A stretch of 62,704 nucleotides of DNA, the filler included, from Collodictyon triciliatum (taxonomy: Eukaryota), in assembly GCA_043381765.1 (NCBI GenBank). It is 12 parts of 12 records of this genome, joined end to end, with 100 filler letters (N's around TTAATTAATTAA, not from the genome) between each part and the next. Parts side by side here need not be neighbours in the genome. Positions count along the whole stretch, not along the records: positions 4,928 to 10,316 come from JBHJMP010005246.1; 11 more parts are not named here. One strand, given 5' to 3'. The position numbers and the translations under genes are program-made. Below are positions 4,641-62,599 of this stretch, one piece after another. The notes under the pieces were generated by a model, which made no database searches, was not told where the DNA came from, and saw only the letters and a program-made list of their open reading frames with translations. Numbering within the stretch: the stretch's first letter is position 1; each line of letters opens with the position of its first letter.

Positions 4641-4827
4641 CTATATTGAGGAAAGCTCTTTTAAACACCATAACACATAACATCAAGCTAGTCGATAGTT
4701 GCATACGTATTCATGATTCGGTGCAAATACTTTGAATCAAATAAAGGGGGGGGGGGGGGGGGGGGAATTATTTGGTGAAAAAAAAAATTCATTTTCGGCG
4801 GGTTTGGCTGGATGGCAACAAGGGAAA

Positions 4828-4927
4828 NNNNNNNNNNNNNNNNNNNNNNNNNNNNNNNNNNNNNNNNNNNNTTAATTAATTAANNNNNNNNNNNNNNNNN
4901 NNNNNNNNNNNNNNNNNNNNNNNNNNN
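4828..4927. other. Artificial contig linker (44 N + TTAATTAATTAA + 44 N), first of 11
   Basis: Identical 100-nt spacers also occur at 10317-10416, 15802-15901, 21284-21383, 26764-26863, 32241-32340, 37718-37817, 43193-43292, 48667-48766, 54141-54240 and 59612-59711. TTAATTAATTAA places stops in all six frames. Confidence 0.99.
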
Positions 4928-7900
4928 AAAGTGGACTGGAGCCGATTCCTGTCGCCAAGTTGACCGAGGGCGAAATTAAGGATGGTGTCGAATCCTTCCT
5001 CATCCGCTATGACAAGACCCTGAACGAAAGGCAAGTTGGAATGATTCTGACTCACATTGAAGATACTGGTGAGACATTTTTTTAAAAGAATATATTTTGA
5101 TTAAATTTTTTTCAGGGAATGATTTAGTTATTCTTATCTGATTTTTTTTTATAGGCCATCCGCTCTATCTCCGCATCATTCTCGATGAAGTCAGGGTGTT
5201 TGGTGTCTATGAGAAGCTTGACGATGAACTGTTTACCTTGCTTTCGGCCAATGATGTCATTGAGCTTTACACTTTCATTATCAAACGCTGGCAACTGAAG
5301 TTTGACAGGAAAGGTGAGTACAGATTGTACATATTTCATAAAAAAAAAAAATAATAAAAAAGTGCAAATTATAATTGCTATTTTTGTTGAATACTTTTTT
5401 TTAATTGTACAGTCTCCTCTTCTGATGGAAAAGAGACGATGCATGTCGAGTATGTCTCCCTCTCGATGAAGGTTCTCTTCGTCTCTCGCATAGGCCTGAG
5501 TGAAGGTGACCTGGACAAGTACATGAAAGATGCGATTGGCACAGGATTCGAGCTTGCTGAATGGTTTGCTTATTCTTGAATTTTAACAAAATCAATAGGT
5601 TAACCCTTTCTCATTTTCTTTTTTATTTAATTTATCTTTTTATCCATTAAAATAGGACATCCTTCTTCTTTACCCTCATCGAGTCGCTTTTCGTTCGCAA
5701 TGGAAGGTTGGTGTTATTTCTCATCCTTTTCGTTCGTTAATCGGTGCTTTCGGTACAATTTTATTTTGATATAAAGCCTTAATTATTGTTTATCATAGAT
5801 ACATGTACTTCCACCAGCTGCTACTGGAGACCACTGAAATAGTTTACTTCTCCGAAAACCAGGAGATGGAAAAACCCACGAAAAATACGGAAGATGGTTG
5901 TTTGGCCAATATTCTGAGTCTGCTGACGCGGATGAGGAGCTTACTGCTGAGATATGCTACCAGCTCCTGAAGGGCAATTCGCTTGACTTGCTTGTGGAAT
6001 ACATGAAGCAAAGACATGTAATTTCTTAATTTTTATTTTTTAATCGAGTATTCTATACGTAATGAAACGATTTTCACTGATTAATTTTGAATATCTCATA
6101 GATTATCAGCATCATGCTTGGTGGTCGCTATCGCTACGAGTTCTTTACATGCTGGAGAGCAATCAACGCAAGCGGAGCGGCAAACTACAAAGATACTTTT
6201 GGAAGCTTGGCTAAGGTATTTTATTATTTAATTTTAATTTGTTGAAGGTTACTACTCACAAATTTAATTATCAACCATGATATATCTATTAATTTTTTTT
6301 TGTTTTTTTCAGTCTTTGAATTAAGTGGGAGACCTGCTGGTTGAATTTTTCTTGGAGTCTTTTGAGAACTCGTTCTTGTTGTCTGTTCTGAATGTGCGTC
6401 TTGGAAAGCATCAGACAGAAAGCATGCAATTTATTTTGAATTTATGTCGTGAAGATTAGATATATATGGGGGCATTAAATAATGTATTAATTCATAGATG
6501 CAAAGGCTGTTGATTACCTGAATCTTGGTCGTGTCTACAAGAACCTCCAAAAGTAAAAAAATAAATAAATGCAATGATTATAAATAGGACATGACATGAT
6601 GATTATTTATGATAACTCTCTAAAATAAAAATAATGAAACACACAGCTGGGCTGAGTCCATGGTCTACTACAAGAGATGCCTCGATTCAGTTGAGAAAAA
6701 TGCCGATGATTCCCTGCGTATTGCTACCATTCATGAAGATATGGGAATCATCTACCAGCAACAGGATAAGTAAGGCTCGCTTTCAACTGTAAAATAAATT
6801 ATGAATAATGTTTCAAAAAGGAAGTGTTCTGATTTTCTTATGAAATAGAATTGATGAAGCTCTTGATGAATACAAGAAATCGCTGGAACTGAGAGTCAAA
6901 CAACTGGGCGAGAACGACTTGCAAGTGGCCCAATCACATGACCGCTTCGGAGACATCTATTTGAAGCAGTCAAAGTAATATTTGATCATTTATATACGTT
7001 AATATTCTGCTTTTTATTTTTGTAAATATGTGCATGCTGACCAATTTTTTTATGATAGGAATGAGCAAGCTCTGGTTGAATACAAAAAGGCCATGGAAAT
7101 CCGCCAAAAGAAAGTCGGAAACGAGCATCCTCTTGTCGCAACATCGTACCAGAACTATGGCCATGTCTCCCTGGCTGGGAAAAAGTAGCACATATTCACC
7201 CATTAAAGACAGTTTTTAATCCAGTTATAATTTTTGAGAAATATTAATATGATTGAATCACCAAGGTATGAAGAGTCTATTGAAAACTTCGAGAAGGCGA
7301 AATCTATCCTTGAAAAATCATTAGGAGCTAAGCATGCATCTGTTGCCTCGACAATCCAGTTTATTGCAAGCGTTCATCTTGCCAGTGGAAAGTTTGGAAT
7401 TACTAAATTTTAGATTTTTTGTATACTACAATGATATTCTATACTTTCAATTTTTGCAAAATGAGTTTGGCTTCATTTCTTTCATTTGTATCCTATTTAG
7501 GGTTAAAATTTTACATCATATAATTCTAATTAATAAATATCAAATTACTTTTACCTTATGTAGGAAAACTGAGGCCTTATCCTCATTAAAGCAATCGCTG
7601 GACATTTTCATGTCTGCCCTTGGTGAAAATCATCCGAATGTCGTGGCCTGCTATGAGATGATTGGAGACATCAGCCATGATTTGAAGGAGTATCTCTTTC
7701 TATAAATTATTTTTATATTTTTAATCGGAAAGAATAACGTATTTACCCTTTTTATTATCCTAGCTTTAAGGGTGCTTTGGAGGCCTATACAAAGACAATA
7801 GATATTCGTGAGAGGACACTGGGCGAAAAACATGCTGACTATGCAACTGCCCTGGAGAATATTGGCCGAACAAACTTTGAGCTTCAAAGGTAAATTTCTG

Positions 7901-9917
7901 TATTATATCACAAAAATTAAATATAATTGTAGTGTTTGCAAAAAATTCATAAATATTAACTAATATGCATGCATCTAGATTGGACCAAGTCGTTGAATAC
8001 TTCCAGAAGGCAGCCGCTATTAGAAAGGAGACAAAGACCATCATGTTAATGAAAGATGGTTCACATATTGATAATATTATTCGCCTCATGAAAGACAAGA
8101 AAGAGCATGAAGCCGTCATTCATCTTTACAAAACACTAATTCATTTATTCAGCAAGCTTTATTCCTTGGATTATCTTGGAATATGGAACAGCTGCGAAGA
8201 AATCGACAAGATTTACAAGGAACTGAAGCAGCATAACGAAGCAGTGGAATTTTGGTCTGATATAAGAGACAAATTCGCTGATAAACTGGGATGGATTAAT
8301 CCTAGTACATTAAAGTCATGCGAATACTTGTCCGTCCATTCAAAAGAAATCGGAATCAACCATGAGCTTGTCGAGTTTACAAGAGTCAAGAAATTCATTT
8401 GTGAAACTCTTGATGATGCAAAACTAGATGAGGAATGGAATCGTGAGCAAATCGTTACATCTTTATTCAGAATTGTGTACATGTCAAAGACTGATGAAAG
8501 TAAATCAAAGGCTGCATCTGATGCAATCACACTTTTGAATTTCATGAATGTTTCGTTTAGTGGAATGGATTTATCAAATATTAGAATTCCACGTGCGAAT
8601 CTCAGTAACTCAATCCTTGATGGTGCAAATCTCACTGGTGCCAACTTGGATGGCACTGATTTCACGAATTCGATGCTTGGTGATTGTATTTTTGATAATG
8701 CAAATATGAATGATGTGAAATTCGGAATTCCTCATGATAAATTGGAAGGTCATACATATTCTGTCTATAGTGTTTGCGCTATTCAAGGACCGAATGGTGA
8801 AAAGTGGCTGGCTTCTGGAAGTGGTGATAACACAATACGTATTTGGGATGTGGCCACAGGAAACCAAATCAAAATACTAGAAGGTCATGCAGGTTTTGTC
8901 ATGAGTGTTTGCAGCATTCAAGGGCCGAATGGTGAAAAGTGGTTGTCTTCTGGAAGTTATGATACAATTCGCATTTGGGATGTAGCCACAGTAAACCAGA
9001 TCAAAACATTTAAAGGACATACAAAACCTGTCAATAGTGTTTGCAGCATTCAAGGGCCGAATGGTGAAAAGTGGCTGGCTTCAGGGAGTGATGATAAAAC
9101 AATACATATTTGGGATGTATCCATAGGGAATCAAATCAAAATATTGAAAGGTCATACAAGAGGTGTCAATAGTGTTTGCAGTATTCAAGGGCCGAATGGT
9201 GAAAACTGGTTGGCATCCGGAAGTAGTGATAAAATAATACGTATTTGGGATGTAGCCACAGGAAACCAAATACACAGTCTGCAAAAACCAGAAGTGACTT
9301 ACACCCAAGGAAAATACCTTGTCAACAAAGAGAAGCCAGACGAAGTCATCGCAGTATTCAACAGGACAAGTGATACGATGAACATGATTGACACCAACAG
9401 AATCCAAGACGCAAAGACAGTCCAGATTATCGGCCCAAGAAAGCTGCAATGTGGAAACATCCAAATCAGAAATGTCGCAGGATTGAGTCAATTCAACATA
9501 ACCCTCCTACTTTCTATCGGTGCTGCTTCCTTTGATGCGGACTTTGCTGCCTATTGTGAGCAGGGTAAGTTCACAAAGTTCCAGGCTCAAATGATGGCTG
9601 AATGCTATGAGAATGGATGGGGTGTCGGGAAGGACACCGAGAAGGCTTATTATTGGAGATTCGTCGCTCCTTTAAAATCATCATTGGATTTTCATGAATT
9701 GAAACATGTAGCACAACAAGGCTCAAAGGATGCATTCAATGTTTTGAAAGAAATGGCTGAAATCAAGAAAGACATCCTGCAGTATGGAAGAAAAATTGGT
9801 GAAAAACACATATACCTGCAAGCTTTTTCTATTGTTGCCGAATGCTATGAGAATGGGTGGGGTGTTGGGAAGGACACCGTGAAAGCAGCTGAGTGGAGAC
9901 AGAAAGCCACAGCTTAA
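4928..9917 (+). CDS. NLR-like gene: NACHT-associated region (NPHP3/TEP1 type), TPR array, pentapeptide, 4x WD40, 2x Sel1-like; 5'-truncated and carrying lesions (possible pseudogene)
   Basis: Spliced exons give GHPLYLRIILDEVRVFG, SRIGLSEGDL and RNGRYMYFHQLL (post-P-loop NACHT motifs), then 42-aa TPRs. The last exon, 7979-9917, matches the 650-aa ORF and ends in TAA. Lesions: a frameshift near 5870, an in-frame TAA at 6322-6324 and a GC donor at 6422. Confidence 0.8.
6647..7889 (+). repeat. Array of single-TPR exons (one of 123 nt, five of 126 nt; all phase 2)
   Basis: Exons 6647-6769, 6849-6974, 7059-7184, 7266-7391, 7564-7689 and 7764-7889, each bounded by AG and GT. Example product: NEQALVEYKKAMEIRQKKVGNEHPLVATSYQNYGHVSLAGKK. 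Confidence 0.9.
8742..9275 (+). repeat. Four near-identical WD40 repeats (period 135/132/135 nt)
   Basis: Consensus LxGHxxxVxSVCxIQGPNGExWLxSGSxDxxIxIWDVxxxNQI; the codon before each GH starts at 8745, 8880, 9012 and 9147. Confidence 0.95.
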
Positions 9918-10204
9918 CAAGGTAAGTGGTATAGTAAATGCATATTAATACATGTTCGTTAATTATAATCATTTTAGATGGAGAGATTCTCTGAGTTTTT
10001 TTCAAGACCTCCGCTTTTTTCCACAAGGATGCTCCATGAAAACAGAATAAAACCAAAAAAAATGAAAGCAAAGCTGATCGATCTCTGTTGCAACCATTTT
10101 ATTTCTTTTTCTTTTTTTCTTTCTCTTTTTCTTTTTCTTATCTTTTTTTCTATCTTTTTTTCTTATCTTTTTTTCTTATCTTTTTTTCTATCGTTTTCTA
10201 TCTT

Positions 10205-10316
10205 TTTTCCATCTTTTCTTTTTCTTTTCTTTTTCTTTTTCTTTTCTTTTTCTTTTCTTTTTCTTTTCTTTTTCTTTTCTTTTTCTTTTCTTTTTCTTTT
10301 CTTTTTCTTTTCTTTT
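10205..10316. repeat. (TTTTC/TTTTTC)n microsatellite at contig end
   Basis: Direct reading. Confidence 0.9.
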
Positions 10317-12190: not shown

Positions 12191-14419
12191 TGAATTTTTT
12201 TGGCCAAAACTTTTATGCTTTGCAGCCAGTTATTGGCACCCAATATGAGAACAACCTTCCTATCCACTCTTTTGTAGGAACATTTTTTTTCTGAAATATT
12301 TTGGCCATGTAGATTTGAATGCCCAGAAACTATGAACCCTGCCGATCACATGCTCGACCTTGTGACACCAGGCTCAGTCATTCGTGGACACGGCAAGGCT
12401 CTTGAAAGGAGTGATATCCAGATGCTCCAGCGGGTAAATTTTTCAATAGAGATGGTAGTAATTGAAGAAGACATGTGCATCATTATTATCATTATTATTC
12501 ACACAAATGCTGAACCCTGCTTTAGAAATATGGCAGTAGCGAAATATGCAAGAAAATGGAAACTTACATCAGATCGCCCAGTGCGTATGAGCCACTATCG
12601 GACGTAGATTTAGAAACGCAAAAGAAAAGGTGAATTGTACCATTTTGTTATTGTTCACATATAGTGAGTCTTTTCTAAAACCCAATGTCAAGAAAATTTT
12701 GTTGTCTTTGAACCATGAAAACAAGACAAAAAATGTAATCTACCCACATTTCCCCCTCAATTCTGGGATTTTTCATCCTAAAGCATTTGTATATAGGCCA
12801 TCTATTTTACATCAGATTAGGATGCTGATTTGGAGAAATGTTACTGGTTTGCAAAGAAATAGCGCAGAAGGGAAAGCACGTGGTTTTGGTATTTTTATCC
12901 AAGTAAACTAATTTCCTTTTTTTTTTCAGGTTTCATATACAGGAGGATAAATGTATCTATAAAAAAACATGAATCCTAACGGATGAATAAATCGCGATCA
13001 CTTTTAGTAAACAGAGTTAGGTATATGAGTTGAAACACAGCTGACCTTTCGGTTTTATTCACATAGTCGCTTCTCTGTGGTCTGGTCTTCTTCAACTTAT
13101 CAACCAGTCCCACTGGATTTCGCGCACGCATAGGAGTTCTCTTCTTCACTATGACAAGCTCTCTTGTTGCTTCCGTTACACACACGATGCCTGTGTTTCC
13201 TTTAGAAAGAGAGTTGGTTATGCACGAAAGGAGAAATGGATACTATAGCCTAGTATCTTACTATCTAGCTCGTTTAATCACTGATAGAATACCTTTATGC
13301 ATTTACCCTATAATCGTGGCAGTCATGGTCTATCCTTTCGTCGGGCTGCGAAGCGGATTTGACCATGTCTGCAAGTTCTTTCTGGCTTACTTGATGCTTT
13401 TTAATACAGGACACGTAATTTCATATGTCACTTTTACATAATAAATTAACAGAATTATTAATATATTTCCTCTAGTTTTATCATTTCCCTTATTCCTCTG
13501 TCTCCTTTTCCCTTCTTTTGATGGTAATGGTGACCGTCGAGCTATTGTTCAAATTCTAAAATCGTATTCTGTTAGGCTATGGGGCTATTTGTTGGGTCCA
13601 TCGTTCCAACTGTCACCGTTGGTGCGATATTTGGCCCACTTTTAGCATACTTTTTCACACTATTCTCAGGATATAGCGTCGCCTTTAGCGTAATTTATCC
13701 ATGCCTTTTATTTATTTTATTTTTTTTTTTTTAAAAAAAACGAGAAACAAAACAAATGTTATTTCCATCTAATCTCTTAAAGGGCGTAATCACCTTTTGT
13801 CTCATCCTGTTTATTGAGATACTGAATCAAACCAAACAAAAATCACTGGAATATATGATATTTCGTTGGATAACGTGTTGATGCCTCTATTATTCTAGGA
13901 AATGCCATCAAGTTTGAAGTGGGTGTCAAAAATCTCGCCCACTCGCTGGGCTTTGGAAGCTGCTGCGATTAATGAGTTTAACGTATGCTTTCAAAACTTT
14001 AAATGACAGAAATAGACAAATAAAACAAGGTATCCTGCTTTGAATGTCACTGCATCTAATAAGACACCTTGAATAAAAGAATGGTCCCATTCACCAGCTA
14101 TTCAATACCTCGACTACTTTCACAGGACGCGTATGACCATTCCCAAAGCACTGCAAATTCAACATACTGTGGCGTTGTGACTGGAGATGTGAGTGCAGAA
14201 CTCCTTTGAATCGCTCATCTTTTTCACCTTGAAGGCTGAGGTCATTCCGCTAAAATGTAGTTGTTGTTTTCCCCCTAGGATGTCCTTGAATACTATGAGT
14301 ACACTGAATACTCTTACAGCGAATGCATATCTATATGCTTCACTCTATTCATCGCATTCAACGTTCTCCTTTATCTATCACTCTATCTCCGCGACAAGTA
14401 CAAGAACAGCGCGCGCTAA
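10580..14419 (+). CDS. ABCG (White-family) half transporter, NBD then TMD; start not resolved, probably 5'-truncated
   Basis: Exons encode Walker [10 protein letters not shown] (~11000), YVMQED, signature ISGGEKRR, Walker [18 protein letters not shown] and NPADHMLD. The TMD includes [17 protein letters not shown], and the gene ends ...[11 protein letters not shown] (14417-14419). Confidence 0.92.
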
Positions 14420-16278: not shown

Positions 16279-19200
16279 ATGGGCTGTTCTGTTTCAAATC
16301 AACGAAATAGAAGAAGAATCATTTCAATTGAAGCGAAGAAGGTGGAATCTTGGTCGATTATACCGGAAGCACACATGAGAGACGTGGATAAATCTACATC
16401 TGAGATAAGTTCGGTTAACATTTTTATTTTAATTACTCTCAAAAAAATTTCAATGTAACCAAACAATAAATAGGATCGATTTACAATAATATCTATCTCA
16501 GAAGTTAAATAATAAATCATAATAAAATTGATACTCAATCATTTGGGAAAAAAAATATCCAGTGCAAACCTGTTCGTCAGAAATGATTTAATAAAGAGAA
16601 TCATGACCATAATTTTTAGGTTGCTCAAGGCCTCTCTGGACCAACCCTCCTGTTGTCCCTGATGAAGTCGAAAGCGAGGCTGCTGTTACAGATTTTGTAC
16701 AAGTTCATTCACCGGAGGTAATTAAAATGTTGTATATATTCACATTTTTTGATTGTATAATTGTTTACGAAATGCACAATTATTTGGTGTGAGTGAATCA
16801 TACTTTCCATTTCACAATAATTAATTATTGGATAGACTCCTTCGCATCAAAGAATTACTAAAAGAAGAGGAAATTCTGTTACTTCTGTGGGCGATCTTAA
16901 TGGCCTTGAGCTAATTCAACTTCAAGAGGTTTCTGATGAACTAGAGCGCCCTGATTCAACCGGAGCAGATTGTGAGATCCAATCAAAAACTGAAGAGGAC
17001 AGTTATGATGTATCCATTAGAAAAGGATCCATTAACCAGCACAGTCGCTCTCTCACTCAACAATTGACGGTGACAATGGAATCGTCCACCCTTGAAACAT
17101 CGATACCCGAACATGATGATTTTGACCAATCGGATAGTACTTCATTCATATCAGCCAGAAGAAGGGCTTCTTCCATGAAAAGTGGTAGTTTTTCCTCAAG
17201 TAAAAAAAACAAACCTGCCTTATTACGAAGGAGATCAAGTACTTTTGAGAAAATGGAACCCTTCTTATCTAAAATCAATCGAAAAAGTGCAGATGAGCAA
17301 CTACCCATCGAATTACTCGAAATAGATGTAAATGTATCATTTAACTCTCTTTGTAGATTTTCGTTGTCGCAACCCCTTAAAATGAAAAGTGTCACAACCG
17401 TTTTACAATTTTTCCCAGAACCTAAAGTAAAGCTTTGTATCATCGCCCCTCCTAAAGGGGTTACTCGGGAAAGAAAACACTTATATAAACATATTGCTGA
17501 TTTGGAGCTATTTTGTTCTGATAGAAGAATATTCCTTAATGTTGTTGATTGTCATGCATTCACGGAAGTACCTCCTTTACAAAACCAAATCAGTCTTGAA
17601 GCTTGTCTGAAGGAAGTTAGAAGTTCGAGCTATTTCTTGTTTTTCATAGGAAATAAATATGGTTGGGTTCCTGATTCATCAGACGAAAATGTCTTTTCTT
17701 TACGAGTTCAAGCAGAATATCCCGTCATTTTGTCATATCCCAATTCCAGTGATGTTACGTTTGAGGTATGTTTAGCATCTCTAATTTATCAGTCAAATTA
17801 AAAAGAAAATACCCACTAAATTTAATTTAATTCAAAGTAGAATCATACTATTTTAATATAAGCTACTTCCAAATACCTTTTTGGTGGATTTTTTGAGATG
17901 ATAATGGTATTTAATCGTTTACAGTTACGCACTGCCTTTATAAAATCTGATCTAATGAAAAGAGGATACGCTTTCTTCAAAGCAATCGATTGTTCTTCGG
18001 AAGACCTCAGTGAAGTCAAAAAAATCTTAGAATTGAAATCATTTGTATGCTCAGAGACCCCTTCACATCCTGTTCACTGCTTTGAATATAAAACCCGCTC
18101 TGATTTTCTCCACAAATTTGTCGAGAGGTTCAAAAGTGACCTAAGCGAAGATTTTCCTCTAAACATTACTCCGATTGAATTTGATGCTTTAATGAACAAA
18201 ATTAATTCGCAATATTGCCAGAAAATGGCAAAAAAATATCGTGGCAGAGCTCAACTCTTACAGGAATTGTTTTCCGAACTTGAACTGAACCATAGAATAC
18301 CTATATTATATTCTGGTCCTCCTGGGATAGGAAAAACTGCCTTGGTGTCCAAGCTACATTCTCTTCTCGACAAAGAGAGGTCATTCATTCATTACACAGG
18401 ACAAGCACTCGAATCGAGAAACATAGAGGTTATGTTGTCTAGAATATTAATTGCCATTGGAATCAATCACTCAACAGAAGAACAAAATATACTAGCAGAA
18501 TTTTCGGATTTAATTAAATCACACTTTAAATCCGATAGCCCTTTTATCATAATTATTGACAGTATAGACAAACTTGATGCATCTGCATCAAAAACAAACT
18601 GGATGGATTGGATTCCATGCCCCCTTCCAACGAATCTCAATATTGTAATGACCTGCTCACACGAATTCACAGATTTTCGGGAGTTCGAATCAACCCGGTT
18701 TCTGTACCTCGAAGCAAAATGCCTAGAATTTTCTGATTTTGAAAAAATAATACAGGATCGAATATCATTTTATAATTTGGAGTTGTCTTTTGATTATTCA
18801 ATAATTTTAGCCAAAAATGTATTCTCTGAAAATCCCTTATTTCTGGAGATATTATTGATTAAGATAAAAGTGGCTTGTGTAAATCATGATGAAAGTATCG
18901 TCTCAGAATATGTGAATAGAGAATGGGACATAATATCTCTCATTCGTTCGCTATTGGAAGATTTCGTACACTACTACACAAAACCACATTACACTGATTT
19001 CGTCTTGGAGGCAATATCCGTTCTTTGCCTCTCAAAGACCGGCTTTCGAGAACGAGACTTACAATTCATGCTTGAGGTTCCTTATTGCATTTGGAGCCCG
19101 TTCTTCTCCGCCATAAGTCTGATACTATGTCAAAATGATGATAAATATGTTTTTCTCAACCAAATACTCACAGAGACTGCTTATTCTTGGTGTTTCCAGG

Positions 19201-20807
19201 AACTGAGTGCCAGACGCGATTCTGTTACAAAAATTTGCTCAAAGATACAAGATTACTTTTTCCCTCTGCTAACTTATCTGGATTCTCGCTCAATCATGAA
19301 TATTATTGATGTACATATAACAAATAACCAGCTCCATTACGCCAGAGATATTTTACTTCATAAAGATGCCAGCGCAAAGATATTAGAATTTCCCGTAAAA
19401 AAACTTGTTCAAAAAGCATGGACAACGCTCAAGAACAGTCCGATGATGATTGATGGCGAATATGAAAGCCTGTTGGATGCTAATTGGGATGGGCTGTTTG
19501 CATTAAAAGTGGCTCGCTTATACATCTCGATTAACAGTTTCGAAGCAGCCATCAAGCTATTGGAGAAAGTTGTTATTGATCAAAACATTATTATAAGCGA
19601 TGACTATATATTTGCATTAATAGATCTAGCCAAACTATATCTCCAGCAAGAGTTGTATTTGAAAAGTATAGTTAACTATGAAAAAGTCATTGAATTAATC
19701 CCCGATACCTATTTGCCGAATCAGGTCGATTATGAGTCATCTTGCCTTGACAATTATGCTCTGGCTTTAGGGAACTTGGGAAGACACACAGAATCATACC
19801 AAGTGCTTGAAAAATCATTGAACATCAGGGTAGAGAGCTATGGAGAATCAAATATATCCATAGGTTATTCCTACAATAACCTGGGACTTCATTTCACTCG
19901 GTGCGGCAAATATGAGGAATCAGCCAAGGCTCATCAAAAATCGGTAGAAATATTGTCTCAGTTGCTCCACAAAGAACATCCAGATATTGCTCTCGTTCAG
20001 TCAAATCTGGCATCAGCTCTTTTGAAAAATGACAAGTTGAAAGAATCGGATGCAATTTTTAAGCAAGCTTTGAAGGTTTTAGAAGCAAAAAGAGGCCAAA
20101 GTCATCCCGAAGTTGCAGCTATTTTGGATAATTTAGGTGTTATATGCACAAGGAGCGGAAAGCCGCACCAAAGTTTTGATTATCACTTGAAGGCTATATC
20201 CATCTATCAAGAAATTTACGGTCACCGTCACCCATGCCTGTCTGGTGTGTTTGTTAATTTGGCTATAGCATCGAAAGAGGTAGCAAACTACCAAAAGTGT
20301 GAGGGGTTTCTCATTCTCGCATTGGAGATAGAGAGATATCGCTCCAGTGAGGAAAATGAAGCGATTGCATCAATCATATTCAATATGGGGCTTCTCTACC
20401 TAGCACAAAGACAAGTGGAAAAGGCTCTGCCACAGTTTCAAGACTCTATGAGAATCCAAGAGAAAGTACTTGGTGAACGCTCACCCTCATTTCTACTATC
20501 ACTCCGATATGTTGCGTGCACTCTGAATGAGATTGGGCAAGTCGATGCAACCATCGATCTCTTTATTCGTCTGGCAGAGATTCAAAAGGAGCACTTTTCA
20601 GATGAACCTCTTCCTTTGGCAACCACCTACTTTAACATCGGAGTGCTTTACTACGACCAAGAGCAAGATAAGAAGTCGTTGGAATATTTCACAAGAGCAT
20701 ACGAAATACAAATTACAAAACTAAGTGAATCCGATCAGGATCTCAAAGAAACACAAGGTTATATTACTGAATTGACATTAGGAAGGGCCGAAGGTTTGTT
20801 GAAATGA
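16279..20807 (+). CDS. DUF4062-like, NACHT and TPR protein (nephrocystin-3-like STAND NTPase) with an N-terminal MGCSVS acylation motif; complete, 4 exons
   Basis: Exons at about 16279-16408, 16620-16717, 16836-17765 and 17925-20807 splice in phase. Motifs: DUF4062-like CLKEVRSSSYFLFFIGNKYGWVP, Walker A GPPGIGKT, Walker B IIIIDSID, NPLFL, SKTGFRERDL, then about nine TPRs (HPDIALVQSNLA, HPEVAAILDNLG). Confidence 0.88.
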
Positions 20808-21383: not shown

Positions 21384-21504
21384 TAGTATTAGTATTATTA
21401 GTATTAGTATTAGTATTAGTATTAGTATTAGTATTAGTATTAGTATTAGTATTAGTATTAGTATTAGTATTAGTATTAGTATTAGTATTAGTATTAGTAT
21501 TAGT
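21384..21504. repeat. (TAGTAT)n microsatellite
   Basis: Direct reading. Confidence 0.95.
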
Positions 21505-21540
21505 AATATTTAAAAGAAGGAAAGGAAGCAAGAACGGTAC

Positions 21541-23500
21541 TCTCTGAGCTGGTTGTGGGCGATAGCCATATTGTTATACAACATCGCAACATCGCAACCC
21601 CGAGATGCGTTTCTCCGACTACTCGCAATCGAATTTCAAGAGATTTGTTATAGAATTACAGTGCTTCTTTTTACCTGCATGCGTACTCTTTTAATTTTTT
21701 AATCATTATTTCTTACTTTCAATTCGTGCGTGATGGTCTGTTACATAATTTTGTAATGACAACTACACGTTGCATGTCATTCAGCATAAATACTTTCCAA
21801 GGCGACTGTGGGCAATTCCAAAATTATCATATGAAGCTGCTACATCTGGATATGTCTCCAAACACTTACTGTCTGATTTCAAGTGATTTTTTGTGATAAT
21901 CGAGTGCTTCCTTATTTTTATCAGTCAAGAAATACATTTGATTAGTAGGACACCAAAGATAAATTCACCCCATTCCTTAAAAGAAAAACCCTGCACCTAT
22001 GTCTTGAATGATTTTTGGAAGAATGCATACATCCCGAGATAAATCTTGATTATTGCAATATTGTTGTACGAGTCTGCAACACGGATGAATTTCTCCCACG
22101 AATTTCAGTCGAATTTTCAGTGACTATTCGTAGTATTCCAGAGCCTTTTGACATCTCTTGTGGGATAAACGTTCATCTGATTAACTACATAGGCTGTTAT
22201 AGTCACGAGTTATCTATGGCAGAGTGCTCTAAATAAGCATACTCTCCAAGTTTTTGATGCACAGCCTCGATGTTATTATATGACTCGGCGGCTTCGGGGT
22301 GCAGTTCTCCGTGGGCTTTTTTTTCTTATTTCGAGAGATTTTTTTGTGGTATTCTAGAGCTTTCTGGCTAGTACAGTATTTTTTGGGTGGTCAAAGAGAT
22401 AAAAATATGAAAAGTGATTAAGGAAATGAAAAAATTTATAGCTGCTTATATAGAAATCCCTTGAACCTACTTTCCGAGTTGCAAGTGAACAACTCCCAAA
22501 AGCTGTAGATTCTTGCTTTGAGCCCCTATGATATGAATGTGATGAGTTTAGCAAATATACAATCACTGATCATATTTAATTAGCTAACCTTCCTCGATTT
22601 CCGCAGATATCCTGTGTTCTAGTATTGGAATCAGAAAATTGTTTTCTTGGACTCCTCAAAAGTAAGCCACCAAAGCAAAGCCAATTGGGTTTGATTGCTA
22701 TCAATTAACTCTTCACTGAACTGCATCGGTCTGCAACTGATTATCGAGATAAAAGGAGGAGAAAAAAAACCGTCGCCATGACCCTATAAATAGCCTTTTG
22801 ATCGTATCCATTTTCATTTAACTCCCTCCAGCATTTAAAAAAACTCGAAGCGATACCTTGTCAACATAATTTCTACAACCTAACCAACAAAAGCATAATT
22901 AATTATTTGGAAACTGCAGAAGAATCCCATCCTTCATATATTTTCATAAACTCCGCAAGCTTCCTGTTTTCCTTTGAAACCCTCAAGTTGTGGTATATTT
23001 CTGCTACGACATCCTTGTCCTCCGTACTAGAGCCATACTCGTTGAATAACCACAATCCTTATTCATGGGCTTCGGTGACTGTACATTCATCTTTATCAAA
23101 GTATCGTTCCTCGATGGATTTTGATAGAAGCTGATGGGAAAAAGCGTATCTGGACATTGTAATTAAGTCTGAATAACGTATTTATTTAAGCTTTCAAAAC
23201 ACCTTCCGCTTCTCACAAAGAGTGAATCCAGCAAAAAAAAAAAAAGGAATAATTTCCTAATGATAATAAGGTGTAAATAGGTATAGGCTAATGTTACCAA
23301 TAAATCAAAATATATCGGGCTGGAGACCTGAATCGTGCCAACAAAAAAAAGGACTGTATGCCAGGTTGTATACTCGAATTTCTGGTGTATTTGTGTAAGT
23401 CTGTGTTCCATATATTTATCTAGTTCATTTTCGTCCAGGCGAATTCGCGATACATGAATGACACTAACCGAAACACAGACGACATACTTTCCTTTATCAA
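21541..23500 (-). pseudogene. NACHT-TPR pseudogene, paralog of the 4928-9917 gene with the same exon structure
   Basis: Exons read VSRIRLDENELDKYM, LDSLFVRSGR, YAFSHQLL...HE*GLWLF and IMLTRYRFEFF/KCWR. Next come a 109-nt exon (22589-22697) and a 55-nt exon (22471-22525) equal in length to 6313-6421 and 6498-6552. Four decayed TPR exons follow (22243-~22370, 22031-22154, 21794-21917, 21541-21674), with stops, indels and a mutated acceptor. Confidence 0.88.
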
Positions 23501-23876
23501 TAATACGAGGTATTGAAATTGATACGGAGCTTTCTCAAGTGTTTCCAGATAATATGCTCATGAGGGGCAATCCGTCTCTTTTAAACATCAGATTTTTCTG
23601 CGTTTGGAACCGGATGGGCCCAATTCTTTTACTCTTCAAAAAACCGTTGTTTCTATAAGTCTTTTGTTACGGTATATACTAAATGTTACGTATATATTGA
23701 TATTATCTTGCCTTTTGTTTGTTTTTTATTTTTATTTTGTGGTTTTTTATTTCAGGATTTACGATGATAACGCACGAATTCGAAAAGAGGGTTTATGGGT
23801 AAGGAATCAATGTGTTATATCGAACGATGAAGGTAGGGAAGTGGACTAAGAACCAATACAAGAATAGTCGGCTTCT

Positions 23877-24719
23877 CTAAACAATCATTGGTGCATCCTC
23901 TGAAAGCAAATTAGTGGGTAAGAACCATGCAGAAAAATCTTTCAAACTCTTCTTTCCTTGTTGCAACAATTCTTGAGCCCTTCCAGTCCTCTCCCCGCGG
24001 TAGCAATCACTCAAAAACACCCAGATAAGATTTAATGACATCAGAAATAGGAAAAATATGGCGAAGAGAATAAATAACATTGGTGGATTGAACAAAGCCC
24101 TAATCATGTCAAGGATACTACTTGTCCCTTCTTTCAGATCACCATATACTTGCTCTTCATCAGCCATGAGATTCTCGGCCTTCAATATTTTTGTAACTGA
24201 AAGAGCAATGGTAACAGCCTCTTTGGAAAGTGCCTTTTCAGCGACCCCAAACCCAACGAAATTAAATATTGATTGCACTAATCCTGCCAGAAACTCGCTC
24301 AGCTCTTCGTTGATCGTTTTTAATTTGAAAGTAGGATGATATTTTCGATAAATTAGGTAGATTGTGGTTATTACGCAGAACAACAAGGCCAGAACACCCC
24401 CCACAAAAACCAAAATTGAACCAACCCTTCCAGCTTCACAGGCTTTCTTGCTAATCGGTAGGTCCTCAGAATCACAACTGTTGTAACTCCAGTACTCGGT
24501 TTCACGGCCCGTTATCTCGAGGTGAATTCCAAAGTATCCGTACCTAACTTGGACAGTACCTTCTCCCGCCTCAAGAGTTGAGTCTTTCGGTGTGGTGAGA
24601 GGAAAGCTACCAGAGAAGGTAAATAAGTCATCATAAATGTAAGAGACTATGGCGGTGGATACTTGGACCACGAAGCACAGCGAGACCAAGCAGCGCCGGC
24701 ATAAGTCGGAATTGGACAT
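23877..24719 (-). CDS. Intronless multi-pass membrane protein, possibly claudin/PMP22-like tetraspan
   Basis: About 280-aa ORF from ATG 24719 (MSNSDLC). It has an N-terminal hydrophobic helix, a loop with YGYFG and two Cys, then 2-3 further hydrophobic helices. The fold call is tentative. Confidence 0.6.
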   Translation of the reverse strand: MSNSDLCRRCLVSLCFVVQVSTAIVSYIYDDLFTFSGSFPLTTPKDSTLEAGEGTVQVRYGYFGIHLEITGRETEYWSYNSCDSEDLPISKKACEAGRVGSILVFVGGVLALLFCVITTIYLIYRKYHPTFKLKTINEELSEFLAGLVQSIFNFVGFGVAEKALSKEAVTIALSVTKILKAENLMADEEQVYGDLKEGTSSILDMIRALFNPPMLFILFAIFFLFLMSLNLIWVFLSDCYRGERTGRAQELLQQGKKSLKDFSAWFLPTNLLSEDAPMIV

Positions 24720-25999
24720 CTTGCGAAGGGTACCTATTGCATGACAGTTAGAACAAGAACTGCAACACCATGCCCACAGGCGAGGCAATCGTTGCACAGA
24801 ATAGTTATTTCTTTGAAATCCTTGTGGACAACCTCACTGTCCATTAAGCCTCTTGAGGAGAACACTTCTCCCCCGACACAGTGCTGTGAAGGGCGCATAG
24901 ATTTCCTTCGGTCAAGGGTTTCGTGCCCGAGTGTAAGGAGAGGATATCGGGGTCTCAAAAGACTAAGACGTTTACTGTTCTCGCCAGGAGAAAGGAAAAA
25001 GGCAGGTGCAGTCAAGCGCAGGAGGAGTCCCAAAAACTTGCCCAAGGGACTTTCGCACCGCAAACCCGAACCGCGTTCTGTTGGGCGATCTGCTCGACTA
25101 TGCTCTGCTGGTTCGAGCCGGCCTTGACTCCCATGGTTTGCACTCCCACGCGGCCACCTTCGGCATCATGAAGTACCTTTGGCAAAATATTTTGCGGATG
25201 GTGCAGAAAAAGATACATTTTTGGATTAATTATTTGACATTTCAATCACCCAAGGGAAATTTTCAACGAATGTTATACAGAATCTTCTATTCTCTGCAAC
25301 CCAAACCGTATATTCTCCCACGCACCATTACATATTCGGAATATTGAAAGTGAGAATTATTTTATTGTGTATATGCATCATTTATTATAATTTTTCAACA
25401 ATTATTATTCAATTTTATGACGCATTACTACAACATAGACTCCAATATATATTTTTCCACTTTTGAATATACCTAATCCTTTTCTATTCTGTTCTGGCTT
25501 TGGTGCACCGGAGGTTGCAACGCGGCTTTGATGCTTTCACTCTTTCTACTTGATTGAATTACACTGCGACCACGATGGTTGGTTTAAATGGTTACTTTTG
25601 ACTTCAGTTTCGTTACTTTTAAGTGATTGGGGGTTCTTGCCTTGTTATTCTTCTGGGTCAAGCATTTCCGTTTACGTGCGTGGATAGAGCCTGGCAAGAT
25701 TCAAACACGCTTTCCACTCGAACTATAATGAAACATGCGTATTTTTTTTTTTTTGAATGTTGATTGTGCAAACCCATCTCCTGGCACCAATATTTTAATA
25801 TCGTTTTCATGATTCATTTCTGAGTCTCATTGGAAGCTATCAACAAATAAAATCGGTATATATTATTATTTTTTTGCTAGGTAATATCTGATGTCTAAGT
25901 ACCTCCTGTAATGCGAGAAAGATCACAAATATTTCATAAAATGATGTTTACAGGATTCCATAAAAAAAACCAATACAAAAACCATCTGATGCCAGAGTC

Positions 26000-59890: not shown

Positions 59891-60254
59891 CCATCTCAAA
59901 GTCTGCGCACTCATAAATGGGGACGTAGAAGACGGTTGCCTTGTCGGGGTCCTTCCCGCTGTGCGGGTTCGCAGCTGCGAGAGCGTCCCACTCGGCCGGA
60001 GGCAGCGGCACATCAGGCAGAGTCAGCGCATCAAGGGCCGAACAGACGTCGCCGACACGCTCGCGATAGTGTGCGAAGCGGGCGTGGGATTCCTGCCGCT
60101 CCTCGGCCGCAGTCTGGAATGCGCGTTGACAGGCCCGCACAAGTGTCTCGAGACGCGATGGCTCCTGCGTGAGGGGCGAAGACTCTGCATCGGCGTCGCC
60201 CGGGATGTGCAGACTCTGCTCGAGTGCTGTGTCTTCGATTGCCACTGATGCCAT
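59891..60254 (-). CDS. ADO: First exon of a cysteamine dioxygenase / plant cysteine oxidase (ADO/PCO)-like protein
   Basis: ATG 60254 ...LDALTLPDV...ATVFYVPIYECADFEMG|gtatgt matches the ADO/PCO 'L..l...D.....v.Y..IYE...FsmG.F' segment. The metal-binding His motif lies beyond the contig end. Confidence 0.6.
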
Positions 60255-61220
60255 ATCTGTGCGGGGTTTGATTGTAAGCATGGCCCTGGTGTTTCTTTGC
60301 TTCTTGATTTCTTTTCTGTCCTTTTCTTTCTTTCATGGAATCAGCCGGCGGGTGGTGGATTTATCTGGTGTTGGGTGCAGGCTGCGTTGTGATGAATCCT
60401 GTAGCGTGTGATGATTGGCACTGCTTTGTTTTTTCTTTCTTCTTTATCTTTTTGGTTCTATCAGGCCCGTGATTGTCTGGTTGTGGGTTAATATGAGCCT
60501 GCTGTGATGAGGGGCGCGGCGGGTTGTGATCCGGTCGGTGATTCGGTTGTCGTCGCCGTGTCGTCGATTTACATGGTGCCGAAGACTCGTGACGACATTC
60601 AGCAGTCGTGTGCCGGATACCTCCCTTTCTTGGTTAATCCAAATCTGGACAAAGCGGTGCGTGTGGCGGTTGTCTGCAGGAAGTCGTGACGGAGACTGGC
60701 GTGGAATTTGCGTCACCACACGATGATACCCTCCTCATTTGGCAAAGCGCGGCACTGTGTATCATATGCGGAAATTGTGTTCCGTATTTATTATTCCACA
60801 TCTGTATTTTCGAATTGGGCAGGAATCTGTGACTGATGTTGTTGTCACGCTTTGTCATTGTGTGCGGCGAAGTCGACAGCTCTCGGACAGCACCTTTCCA
60901 GATGGGGCTCATATGACATCATCACCCGTAATTTAGCCGAAAGCGTGAATTATCTCGCTGTTTTTGGAAGCTCTTGTGGACGAGAATGGTAGTTCTTAAC
61001 CAAGTCTCCATGTGTGGAATAGTAATAATGGTATCAACGCGCTGAATTGTTCCCGTTGTGACATATCTGGAAACTATCCTTTCTAAGGGGAGAGAGGCAA
61101 TCACACATATTTCGATGCATCTAGGGTTTGCTTTATTCTCTGGCGTTTCTTTTACTTTTTCTTGCTTCTCCCAACCCGGCGGTGCGATGCGGCAGGCAGG
61201 AGCAAACGTCATGGGCTAAC

Positions 61221-62599
<1,379 letters not shown>

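What the first reader, a model, noticed from the sequence alone, without database searches (positions are those of the whole stretch)
6647..7889. NLR-like NACHT-TPR gene with one TPR per symmetric 126-nt exon: candidate exon-shuffling or alternative-splicing receptor system
Seen: five consecutive exons of exactly 126 nt, plus one of 123 nt, all phase 2-2 and each encoding one 42-aa TPR unit. Any of them can be skipped, duplicated or swapped without losing frame. Established: STAND NTPase + TPR is an NLR-type layout, and repeat-per-exon sensor domains in Ectocarpus NB-ARC-TPR and ROCO-LRR genes were proposed to diversify by exon shuffling. Inference: this organism has a comparable modular receptor family built on an NPHP3-type NACHT. 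The decayed paralog at 21541-23500 and the LRR and Kelch genes show the design is recurrent here.
Basis: partly seen in the sequence, partly recalled or inferred. Interest (0 to 1): 0.8.

Follow-up and report, generated by a model that had tools for sequence, protein, structure and literature searches.

The report
Old one-repeat-per-exon TPR array
The six equal-sized exons are real and are spliced as predicted, but they look like an old, stable repeat array in a large NACHT-TPR-WD40 gene (this copy probably broken), not a device for shuffling receptor modules.

Summary
Observation confirmed. Exons 6647-6769 (123 nt) and 6849-6974, 7059-7184, 7266-7391, 7564-7689 and 7764-7889 (126 nt each) are all AG|..|GT and phase 2-2. 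Spliced contigs of RNA-type runs join four of their seven junctions exactly.

- The window is a chain of unrelated ~5.4-kb contigs joined by linkers, so the "paralog, LRR and Kelch genes" are not neighbours.
- The gene is 5'-truncated, with no P-loop in the contig. It also carries a frameshift, an in-frame TAA and a GC donor.
- Its spliced translation aligns collinearly, at 47-48% identity over 907-1033 residues, with two Diphylleia rotans transcriptome proteins. Their layout is CH-DUF4062-NACHT-TPR-pentapeptide-WD40.
- Every TPR unit is most like the unit at the same position in these proteins: 6 of 6 and 6 of 6, with one tie.
- Exons are only 37-52% identical to each other, the introns are unrelated, and no dead exons lie in the introns.
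- No exon-skipping joint is among the 15 best-supported joints (42 others not shown).

Verdict: a relic of ancient tandem exon duplication, and an ordinary new member of a known kind. The nearly identical WD40 repeats are the more dynamic part.

The parts
4928..5068 (+). First exon in the contig, cut by the contig start. It corresponds to the last residues of the NACHT region of homologue P0195 (its residue 800 onward).
5155..5313 (+). Exon of the post-NACHT helical region.
   Evidence: X7 contig joins 5311>5411 (table 8)
5413..5563 (+). Exon.
   Evidence: joint 5562>5655, GT..AG, in X1, X2, X7
5656..5706 (+). Exon (51 nt).
   Evidence: joints 5562>5655 and 5704>5797
5799..6017 (+). Exon with a 1-nt frameshift at about 5867-5869, in a short G/A homopolymer. 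Relatives' spliced contigs carry one extra base there.
   Evidence: (table 4)
6102..6215 (+). Exon.
   Evidence: joints 6018>6103 and 6213>6311
6313..6421 (+). Exon with an in-frame TAA at 6322-6324, where the homologues have K or R. It is followed by a GC (not GT) donor at 6422.
   Evidence: joint 6419>6496
6498..6552 (+). 55-nt exon holding helix A of the first TPR. It ends in phase 2.
   Evidence: joint 6552>6647
6647..6769 (+). TPR exon T1, 123 nt, phase 2-2.
6849..6974 (+). TPR exon T2, 126 nt, phase 2-2.
7059..7184 (+). TPR exon T3, 126 nt, phase 2-2.
7266..7391 (+). TPR exon T4, 126 nt, phase 2-2.
7564..7689 (+). TPR exon T5, 126 nt, phase 2-2.
7764..7889 (+). TPR exon T6, 126 nt, phase 2-2.
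   Evidence: (loose ends)
7979..9917 (+). Last exon (645 codons plus a TAA stop). It holds helix B of the last TPR, a ~185-residue helical TPR-like linker, pentapeptide repeats (about 8538-8654), four WD40 units (8746-9271) and Sel1 repeats (about 9591-9656).
21541..23534 (-). Decayed member of the same subfamily on another contig. It has the same 55-nt + ~126-nt exon design, with many stops and frameshifts.
16836..20804 (+). A different DUF4062-NACHT-TPR gene on another contig. Its whole TPR array lies in one 981-codon ORF, so it serves as a contrast case.

Best explanation
The region is the TPR array of a very large STAND-NTPase gene of a freshwater microbial eukaryote. By homology the family layout is CH-DUF4062-NACHT-helical-TPR-linker-pentapeptide-WD40; this copy ends in Sel1 repeats.

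The 42-residue (kinesin-light-chain / NPHP3-type) TPR was multiplied long ago by tandem duplication of an exon together with its phase-2 intron. That left one repeat period per 126-nt exon, with the intron always in the turn between helices A and B. Since then the array has behaved as a fixed, constitutively spliced structure. Each position has its own conserved sequence. Unit number and order are the same in homologues only 47-48% identical.

Shown: the exon anatomy, splicing at the predicted sites in close relatives, positional conservation, and the age of the exons.

Inferred: the duplication origin, and a function as a scaffold or sensor arm of an NLR-like ATPase.

This particular copy is probably a young pseudogene or an error-laden assembly. 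It has a frameshift, a nonsense codon, a GC donor and only four WD40 blades.
For: Exon anatomy and age
- Exon coordinates, phases and GT..AG sites.
- Pfam register of each exon (TPR_10 positions 18/19-42, TPR_12 positions ~20-58).
- Pairwise exon identity is 37-52% nt and 12-37% aa, against 26.3 ± 3.7% nt for shuffled sequence. The maximum with gapped alignment is 62%.
- Intron against intron gives only 8-13-nt matches at E >= 0.13, and the 172-nt intron holds no TPR-like frame.

Splicing
- Spliced joints appear in X1, X2 and X7 but not in the DNA run X3.

Conservation of the design
- The same exon design is present in a diverged, decayed copy.
- The same last intron is present in an ~80%-identical relative, P0001, whose ORF reads through the end of T6, the intron and the last exon.

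Positional conservation
- The spliced translation aligns with P0195 (48.4% over 1033 columns, 13 gaps) and P0194 (46.6% over 907 columns, 3 gaps). Both are named as Diphylleia rotans transcriptome ORFs.
- Unit-by-unit matrix: the best match is on the diagonal in 6 of 6 rows for P0195 and 6 of 6 for P0194 (one tie, T5). The diagonal mean is 41.5 / 41.6% against 22.0 / 21.7% off the diagonal.
- Two Trinity isoforms of that gene (P0195, P0225) are 2609/2619 identical without gaps. Their TPR region is identical in the part of the output I could see, up to about residue 1512.

Selection
- Of 35 listed coding differences to relatives, I counted about 21 synonymous and 14 not. In the TPR exons, 4 of 4 are synonymous.
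Against: - Only 15 of 57 joints and 40 of 315 base differences were shown, so rare exon-skipping isoforms or variable sites cannot be excluded.
- One listed joint (7174>7294, CT..AG, 3 letters between; 2 contigs in X1 and 1 in X2) is unexplained. It could be a divergent paralog or an alternative form.
- In X2, record 13 has 55 letters beyond exon T5 that are not listed as laid on T6.
- For the more distant P0193 (30% identity), only 3 of 6 units are best on the diagonal.
- The family is large: 449 and 407 contigs of X1 and X2 were laid on 5 kb, most of them 90-95% alike. I could not obtain the paralogs' exon structures, because no genome is held and two metagenome scans found nothing related.
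- The positional test used proteins of another organism, not paralogs within this genome.
Confidence: 0.75

Rival explanations
1. The symmetric 126-nt exons are cassettes that this organism shuffles between genes, duplicates, or skips by alternative splicing, to diversify an NLR-like receptor repertoire as proposed for brown-algal NB-ARC-TPR genes.
For: - All six exons are phase 2-2, so any of them can be removed or duplicated in frame.
- The exon length is the same as in Ectocarpus (PMC3341825, sections 16 and 19).
- The family is large and transcribed.
- Gene birth and death are visible: one decayed copy and one damaged copy among 11 contigs.
- One odd joint, 7174>7294, is unexplained.
Against: - Units group by position against homologues 47-48% identical: 6 of 6 and 6 of 6.
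- Exons are only 37-52% identical to each other.
- Introns are unrelated and hold no dead exons.
- The 4 listed differences in TPR exons are all synonymous.
- None of the 15 joints shown skips a whole exon.
- Two Trinity isoforms of the homologue have the same TPR array in the part I could see.
Confidence: 0.08
2. If any part of this protein is a fast-evolving sensor, it is the WD40 array in the last exon and not the TPR exons. The WD40 units are nearly identical to each other. They could expand, contract and homogenise by unequal recombination, as recalled for fungal NACHT-WD40 (HET-E/NWD-type) genes. This is not exclusive of the best explanation.
For: - Tandem Repeats Finder reports a 135-nt period, 3.9 copies and 81% matches at 8746-9271, against 37-52% identity for the TPR exons.
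- A 'goes back 525' joint, and an extra AAA at 8963, occur in relatives' contigs.
- The homologues carry many more WD40 units (10-14 Pfam stretches) than the 4 found here.
Against: - Copy-number differences could be assembly collapse of a repeat.
- No per-position variability or selection test was done.
- The fungal parallel is recalled, not tested.
Confidence: 0.3
3. The introns were gained independently at the same place in each repeat (for example at a recurring proto-splice site), not inherited through exon-plus-intron duplication.
For: The introns share no sequence. The exon ends are A/G-rich just before the GT.
Against: Seven introns lie at the identical codon position and phase in consecutive repeats. 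The same positions are used in a diverged paralog. Another TPR gene of the same assembly has no introns in its array. Duplication explains this with one event type.
Confidence: 0.03

Closest known systems
[quoted passage not shown] Teng et al. 2023, Plant J, seen only as a citation in PMC11378527.)
   Same: A STAND NTPase followed by a TPR array. The TPR domain is built of 126-nt, 42-aa exons whose length is a multiple of three. Pseudogenes occur in the family.
   Different: - The NTPase here is NACHT/NPHP3_N-type by homology, with no NB-ARC hit.
- Exons here are old and positionally conserved, whereas the paper reports shuffling that obscures paralogy.
- No inactivated exons lie in the introns.
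- Pentapeptide, WD40 and Sel1 repeats follow the TPRs.
- I could not compare intron position and phase with Ectocarpus.
Diphylleia rotans transcriptome proteins P0195 (2619 aa) and P0194 (1219 aa), named in EukProt
   Same: They are collinear with the spliced model over 907-1033 columns at 47-48% identity. They have the same number and order of TPR units, the same linker, the same pentapeptide motif and WD40 repeats.
   Different: They carry many more WD40 units. They have intact reading frames where the window has a stop and a frameshift. Their gene structure is unknown because they are transcripts only.
NPHP3-like DUF4062-NACHT-TPR proteins (Pfam NPHP3_N, TPR_NPHP3, TPR_12, TPR_10)
   Same: The TPRs are of the 42-residue kinesin-light-chain type. 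Weak TPR_NPHP3 hits occur on single exons and stronger ones in homologue P0194 (2.6e-25, under the curated cut-off). DUF4062 and NACHT/NPHP3_N are present in homologue P0195.
   Different: A C-terminal pentapeptide-WD40-Sel1 extension and an N-terminal CH domain (in the homologue). No function is known in this lineage.
NACHT-pentapeptide-WD40 proteins of Reticulomyxa filosa (P0165 = RFI_32426, P0191; names)
   Same: The linker end, pentapeptide and WD40 module. P0165 residues 782-1165 match window 8085-9284 at 33.6% over 408 columns.
   Different: Their N-terminal NACHT and helical parts do not match this gene at E <= 1e-3.

Membership tests
Exon-shuffled STAND-TPR receptors of the brown-algal type | NB-ARC nucleotide-binding domain | tested here: not met
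   The contig lacks the NTPase core. The N-terminal 900 residues of the collinear homologue P0195 hit NACHT (25.7 bits, cut-off 26.7), nSTAND1 and NPHP3_N (each just under its curated cut-off). There is no NB-ARC hit at E <= 0.01.
Exon-shuffled STAND-TPR receptors of the brown-algal type | TPR domain encoded by serial 126-nt (42-aa) exons | tested here: met
   Five exons of 126 nt and one of 123 nt, all phase 2-2. Splicing is seen in RNA-type contigs.
Exon-shuffled STAND-TPR receptors of the brown-algal type | Exon shuffling: exons mixed across positions and genes, paralogy obscured | tested here: not met
   Units are best matched by position in 6 of 6 (P0195) and 6 of 6 (P0194, one tie) rows. 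Exon pairs are 37-52% identical. The test used homologues of another organism, not paralogs within this genome.
Exon-shuffled STAND-TPR receptors of the brown-algal type | Inactivated repeat exons inside the introns | tested here: not met
   Six of the seven introns (74-94 nt) are shorter than an exon. The 172-nt intron has stops in all three forward frames and no TPR-like stretch.
Exon-shuffled STAND-TPR receptors of the brown-algal type | Diversifying selection on the repeat exons | tested here: inconclusive
   Only 4 differences in TPR exons were listed, all synonymous. 275 further differences were not shown.
Exon-shuffled STAND-TPR receptors of the brown-algal type | Alternative splicing of repeat exons | tested here: inconclusive
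   None of the 15 joints shown skips a whole exon, and 42 joints were not shown. The data are contigs, not reads.
NPHP3-like NACHT-TPR STAND NTPases | P-loop NTPase (NACHT / NPHP3_N) domain | tested here: inconclusive
   Not in the contig, which starts at the equivalent of P0195 residue 800. It is inferred from 48% identity over 1033 columns to P0195, whose NACHT and NPHP3_N scores lie just under the curated cut-offs. Exons 4930-5070 and 5157-5312 alone give no Pfam hit.
NPHP3-like NACHT-TPR STAND NTPases | 42-residue TPR_12/TPR_10-type repeats | tested here: met
   Each single exon hits TPR_12, at E 7.8e-07 to 0.042 (single exons score under the cut-off). Homologues P0194 and P0195 score 4.5e-40 and 3.5e-40.
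NACHT-WD40 NLR-like proteins with highly similar internal repeats (fungal HET-E/NWD type; recalled) | WD40 repeats after a NACHT domain | tested here: met
   WD40 E 1.2e-35 with 4 stretches in the last exon. The NACHT domain is known only by homology.
NACHT-WD40 NLR-like proteins with highly similar internal repeats (fungal HET-E/NWD type; recalled) | High internal conservation of the repeat units | tested here: met
   135-nt period, 3.9 copies, 81% matches.
NACHT-WD40 NLR-like proteins with highly similar internal repeats (fungal HET-E/NWD type; recalled) | Variation concentrated at surface positions under positive selection | not tested
   A column-by-column count of the four units was not completed.

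The most novel reading that the evidence does not exclude
A little-studied freshwater protist lineage carries a large, transcribed family of giant NLR-like proteins (NACHT-TPR-pentapeptide-WD40-Sel1). In this family the frame-neutral 126-nt TPR exons are used as cassettes, by rare exon skipping or exchange among the many 90-99%-identical paralogs. Together with an unstable WD40 array, this would be a second, independent case of the brown-algal 'repeat-per-exon' receptor diversification.
Probability: 0.08. Interest if true: 0.6.

Novelty: new member of a known kind. Interest (0 to 1): 0.25.

Why it matters
If the cassette idea were right, this would be a second eukaryotic lineage that diversifies intracellular receptors by exon combinatorics. 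The evidence instead shows that a striking run of symmetric, equal-length exons can simply be the fossil of an old tandem duplication in a conserved repeat array. That is a useful caution for genome scans. What remains of modest interest is the family itself. It is a giant STAND protein that strings TPR, pentapeptide, WD40 and Sel1 repeats together. It is abundant and transcribed in freshwater protists, and its WD40 units are nearly identical to each other.

Tried and rejected
- No genome is held for the window, so the genome-wide scan for 126-nt TPR exons could not be run.
- The first protein search, with the whole last exon, was swamped by WD40 proteins. Only P0001 was a close relative.
- A 'longer' search on residues 1-250 was swamped by bacterial pentapeptide proteins, but it gave two Reticulomyxa filosa NACHT-WD40 proteins.
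- A 'near' search on residues 1-190 found P0001 alone.
- Metagenome scans: the protein-pattern scan confirmed none of its 57 pattern matches. The 20-nt DNA pattern gave 3 contigs of 64-71% GC with no BLASTN similarity to the contig, so these are chance matches.
- Nucleotide BLAST of the target exons against the decayed copy gave one weak 47-nt match. The two copies are too diverged for an exon-by-exon nucleotide tree.
- tblastn of the 981-residue NACHT-TPR ORF against the target contig gave no significant match, so it belongs to a different subfamily.
- AlphaFold of residues 1-250 of the last exon, without an alignment, gave mean pLDDT 39.8. The model is unusable beyond 'helical', and no fold search was made.
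- The Atlas look-up called the linker TPR-like (score 0.96), but recognition was 2070, under the 2300 mark, so this is weak.
- The possibility that TAA is read as a sense codon was rejected. The 645-codon last exon has no in-frame stop and ends with TAA.
- Earlier findings of the scan: three look-ups, nothing.
- Parts of the stretch with low or no depth in X7 and X3 are not evidence of anything.
- Library searches for 'Reticulomyxa filosa' + 'NACHT' found 0 papers. Searches gave no paper on repeat-per-exon TPR genes outside brown algae. These four searches are the only basis for saying I found none. Supplementary tables of PMC3341825 were not seen.
Full report
**What the window is.** The 62.7-kb window is not one locus. 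Eleven linkers (44 N, a 12-base all-frame stop linker, 44 N) join contigs of about 5.4 kb each, and no genome is held for it. The finding lies in the contig 4928-10316.

**The observation.**
- A scan for AG|open frame|GT exons recovers exactly the six exons described: 6647-6769 (123 nt), then 6849-6974, 7059-7184, 7266-7391, 7564-7689 and 7764-7889 (126 nt each). All are phase 2-2 with GT..AG introns of 74-172 nt.
- The array is preceded by a 55-nt exon (6498-6552) and followed by a 1939-nt last exon (7979-9917).
- Pfam places the first residue of each exon at position 18-19 of the 42-residue TPR_10 model and about position 20 of TPR_12. The intron therefore always splits a codon in the turn between helices A and B. 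One exon equals helix B, the linker, and the next helix A: one repeat period, but not one self-contained repeat.
- Contigs of two runs guessed to be RNA (X1, X2) and of a metatranscriptome (X7) join 6552>6647, 6769>6849, 7184>7266 and 7391>7564 exactly, as well as four upstream junctions.
- Loose ends and two approximate joints fit 6974>7059 and 7889>7979. The junction 7689>7764 is not among the rows shown.
- The DNA run X3 has none of these joints and covers intron sequence.
- Most laid contigs are 90-95% alike, so they come from paralogs or close relatives. X1 and X2 also contain unspliced pieces across intron 6770-6848 (table 8).

**The gene.**
- The corrected model has 15 exons in the contig and is cut at its 5' end, so the P-loop is absent.
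- The last exon carries pentapeptide repeats, four WD40 units and Sel1 repeats.
- The copy is damaged. Reading through needs one extra base at about 5867-5869, where relatives' contigs have one (table 4).
- There is an in-frame TAA at 6322-6324, where homologues have K or R.
- The donor at 6422 is GC.
- One WD40 unit lacks a codon that a relative has (place 8963).
- The frameshift sits in a homopolymer and could be an assembly error. The stop is harder to explain that way.

**Relatives.**
- An all-against-all HMMER search with the 186-residue linker gave three full-length matches, which EukProt names as Diphylleia rotans transcriptome ORFs.
- The spliced translation (X at the two defects, built only inside a script) aligns with P0195 at 48.4% over 1033 columns with 13 gaps (its residues 800-1821). 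It aligns with P0194 at 46.6% over 907 columns with 3 gaps.
- The N-terminal 900 residues of P0195 hit CH and DUF4062. They also hit NACHT, nSTAND1 and NPHP3_N, each just under its curated cut-off.
- The family layout is therefore CH-DUF4062-NACHT-helical-TPR-linker-pentapeptide-WD40. The 'NACHT-TPR, NLR-like' label holds by homology.
- Two Reticulomyxa filosa NACHT-WD40 proteins share only the linker-pentapeptide-WD40 part, at about 33% identity.
- The source organism is not identified. Holders of near-identical DNA are freshwater metagenomes.

**Testing the shuffling idea.**
1. Exons within the gene are 37-52% identical in nucleotides and 12-37% in residues (26% nt expected for shuffled sequence). 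No pair exceeds 62% with gapped alignment, even when the exons of the decayed copy are included.
2. The introns share nothing but 8-13-mers. Six of the seven are too short to hide an exon, and the 172-nt one has no TPR-like frame.
3. The unit-by-unit matrix against P0195 and P0194 has its row maximum on the diagonal in 6 of 6 and 6 of 6 rows (one tie). The means are 41.5 / 41.6% on the diagonal against 22.0 / 21.7% off it. For the distant P0193 the figure is 3 of 6. Number and order of units have thus been stable since a divergence of about 50% in protein sequence.
4. The decayed copy on the contig 21384-26763 keeps the same design: exons of 55, 125, 126, 117 or 126, and 134 nt, the last holding a small internal duplication. 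P0001, an ~80%-identical relative, is an ORF that reads through the end of T6, the intron and the last exon. The introns are therefore inherited family features.
5. Of 35 listed coding differences to relatives, I counted about 21 synonymous. All 4 in TPR exons are synonymous. This is a small sample, 40 of 315 differences.
6. None of the 15 joints shown skips an exon, although 42 joints were not shown. One joint (7174>7294) is unexplained.
7. Two Trinity isoforms of the homologue are 2609/2619 identical without gaps, and identical across the TPR array in the part of the output I could see.

**'Recurrent design'.** The design is shared by the two members of this subfamily. It is not shared by the DUF4062-NACHT-TPR gene at 16836-20804, whose six or more TPR_12 stretches lie in one 981-codon ORF. 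It is not shared by the LRR ORF 28247-28627 (-), which by eye holds four to five repeats in one ORF. Nor is it shared by the Kelch ORFs, whose matches span about two repeats each.

**Comparison with what is known.** In Ectocarpus, 13 of 24 NB-ARC-TPR genes have 42-aa, 126-nt TPR exons, with dead exons in the introns and shuffling that obscures paralogy (PMC3341825, sections 11, 16, 19 and passages). Brown-algal ROCO genes have 72-bp phase-2 LRR exons with alternative splicing (PMC11378527, passages). The present gene shares the exon length and the STAND + TPR logic. It fails the tests for shuffling and has a NACHT-type rather than an NB-ARC module. The equal exon length follows from the 42-residue repeat and need not mean common descent.

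**What is more dynamic.** The four WD40 units form a 135-nt tandem array with 81% matches, far more alike than the TPR exons. Relatives' contigs show a 'goes back 525' joint there, and homologues have many more units. This may be repeat instability or assembly collapse. A per-column variability count was not completed, so that question is open.

**Verdict.** It is not supported for exon shuffling, alternative splicing, or recurrence across repeat families. The best reading (0.75) is an old tandem exon duplication preserved as a fixed array in a large STAND family, with this copy probably non-functional. The cassette reading keeps about 0.08.

Noticed in passing
window 4828-4927 and ten further places (10317, 15802, 21284, 26764, 32241, 37718, 43193, 48667, 54141, 59612): The window is an artificial chain of ~5.4-kb contigs joined by N44 + a 12-base stop linker + N44. 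Neighbouring genes in the window are not neighbours in the genome.
   Followed up: yes
window 8746-9271: The WD40 array is a 135-nt tandem repeat with 3.9 copies and 81% matches. Relatives' contigs show a 'goes back 525' joint and an extra codon. Four blades are too few for a propeller, so the array is either collapsed in assembly or deleted.
   Followed up: partly
window 16836-20804 (+): A second STAND gene (DUF4062, P-loop NACHT/NPHP3_N/AAA_16, at least 6 TPR_12 stretches) has its TPR array in one 981-codon ORF. It shows no detectable similarity to the target outside the TPRs.
   Followed up: partly
window 6422-6497: A probable GC-AG intron. Relatives' spliced contigs join at the same place, with a one-base difference at the junction.
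   Followed up: partly
window 9591-9914: Sel1 repeats lie at the C-terminus after the WD40 units. TPR, pentapeptide, WD40 and Sel1 in one STAND protein is an unusual combination.
   Followed up: no
window 21384-21500, 10000-10316, 27755-28122, 38000-39100: Long microsatellite-like and low-complexity runs sit at contig ends and between genes: a hexamer array after the decayed copy, and T/C-rich and A/C-rich runs elsewhere. They probably explain why the assembly breaks there.
   Followed up: no
window 4737-4765: A run of about 25 G lies close to the end of the preceding contig. It may be a sequencing artefact.
   Followed up: no
window 60001-62000: The last contig has 51% GC against 31-42% elsewhere. 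It may be a different genomic compartment or a contaminant.
   Followed up: no
window 50548-51090 (+), 40307-40639 (+), 13067-13438 (+), 44547-45329 (-): Ordinary eukaryotic gene fragments lie on other contigs: topoisomerase I DNA-binding part, OBG GTPase, ABC-2 transporter and an RRM protein.
   Followed up: no
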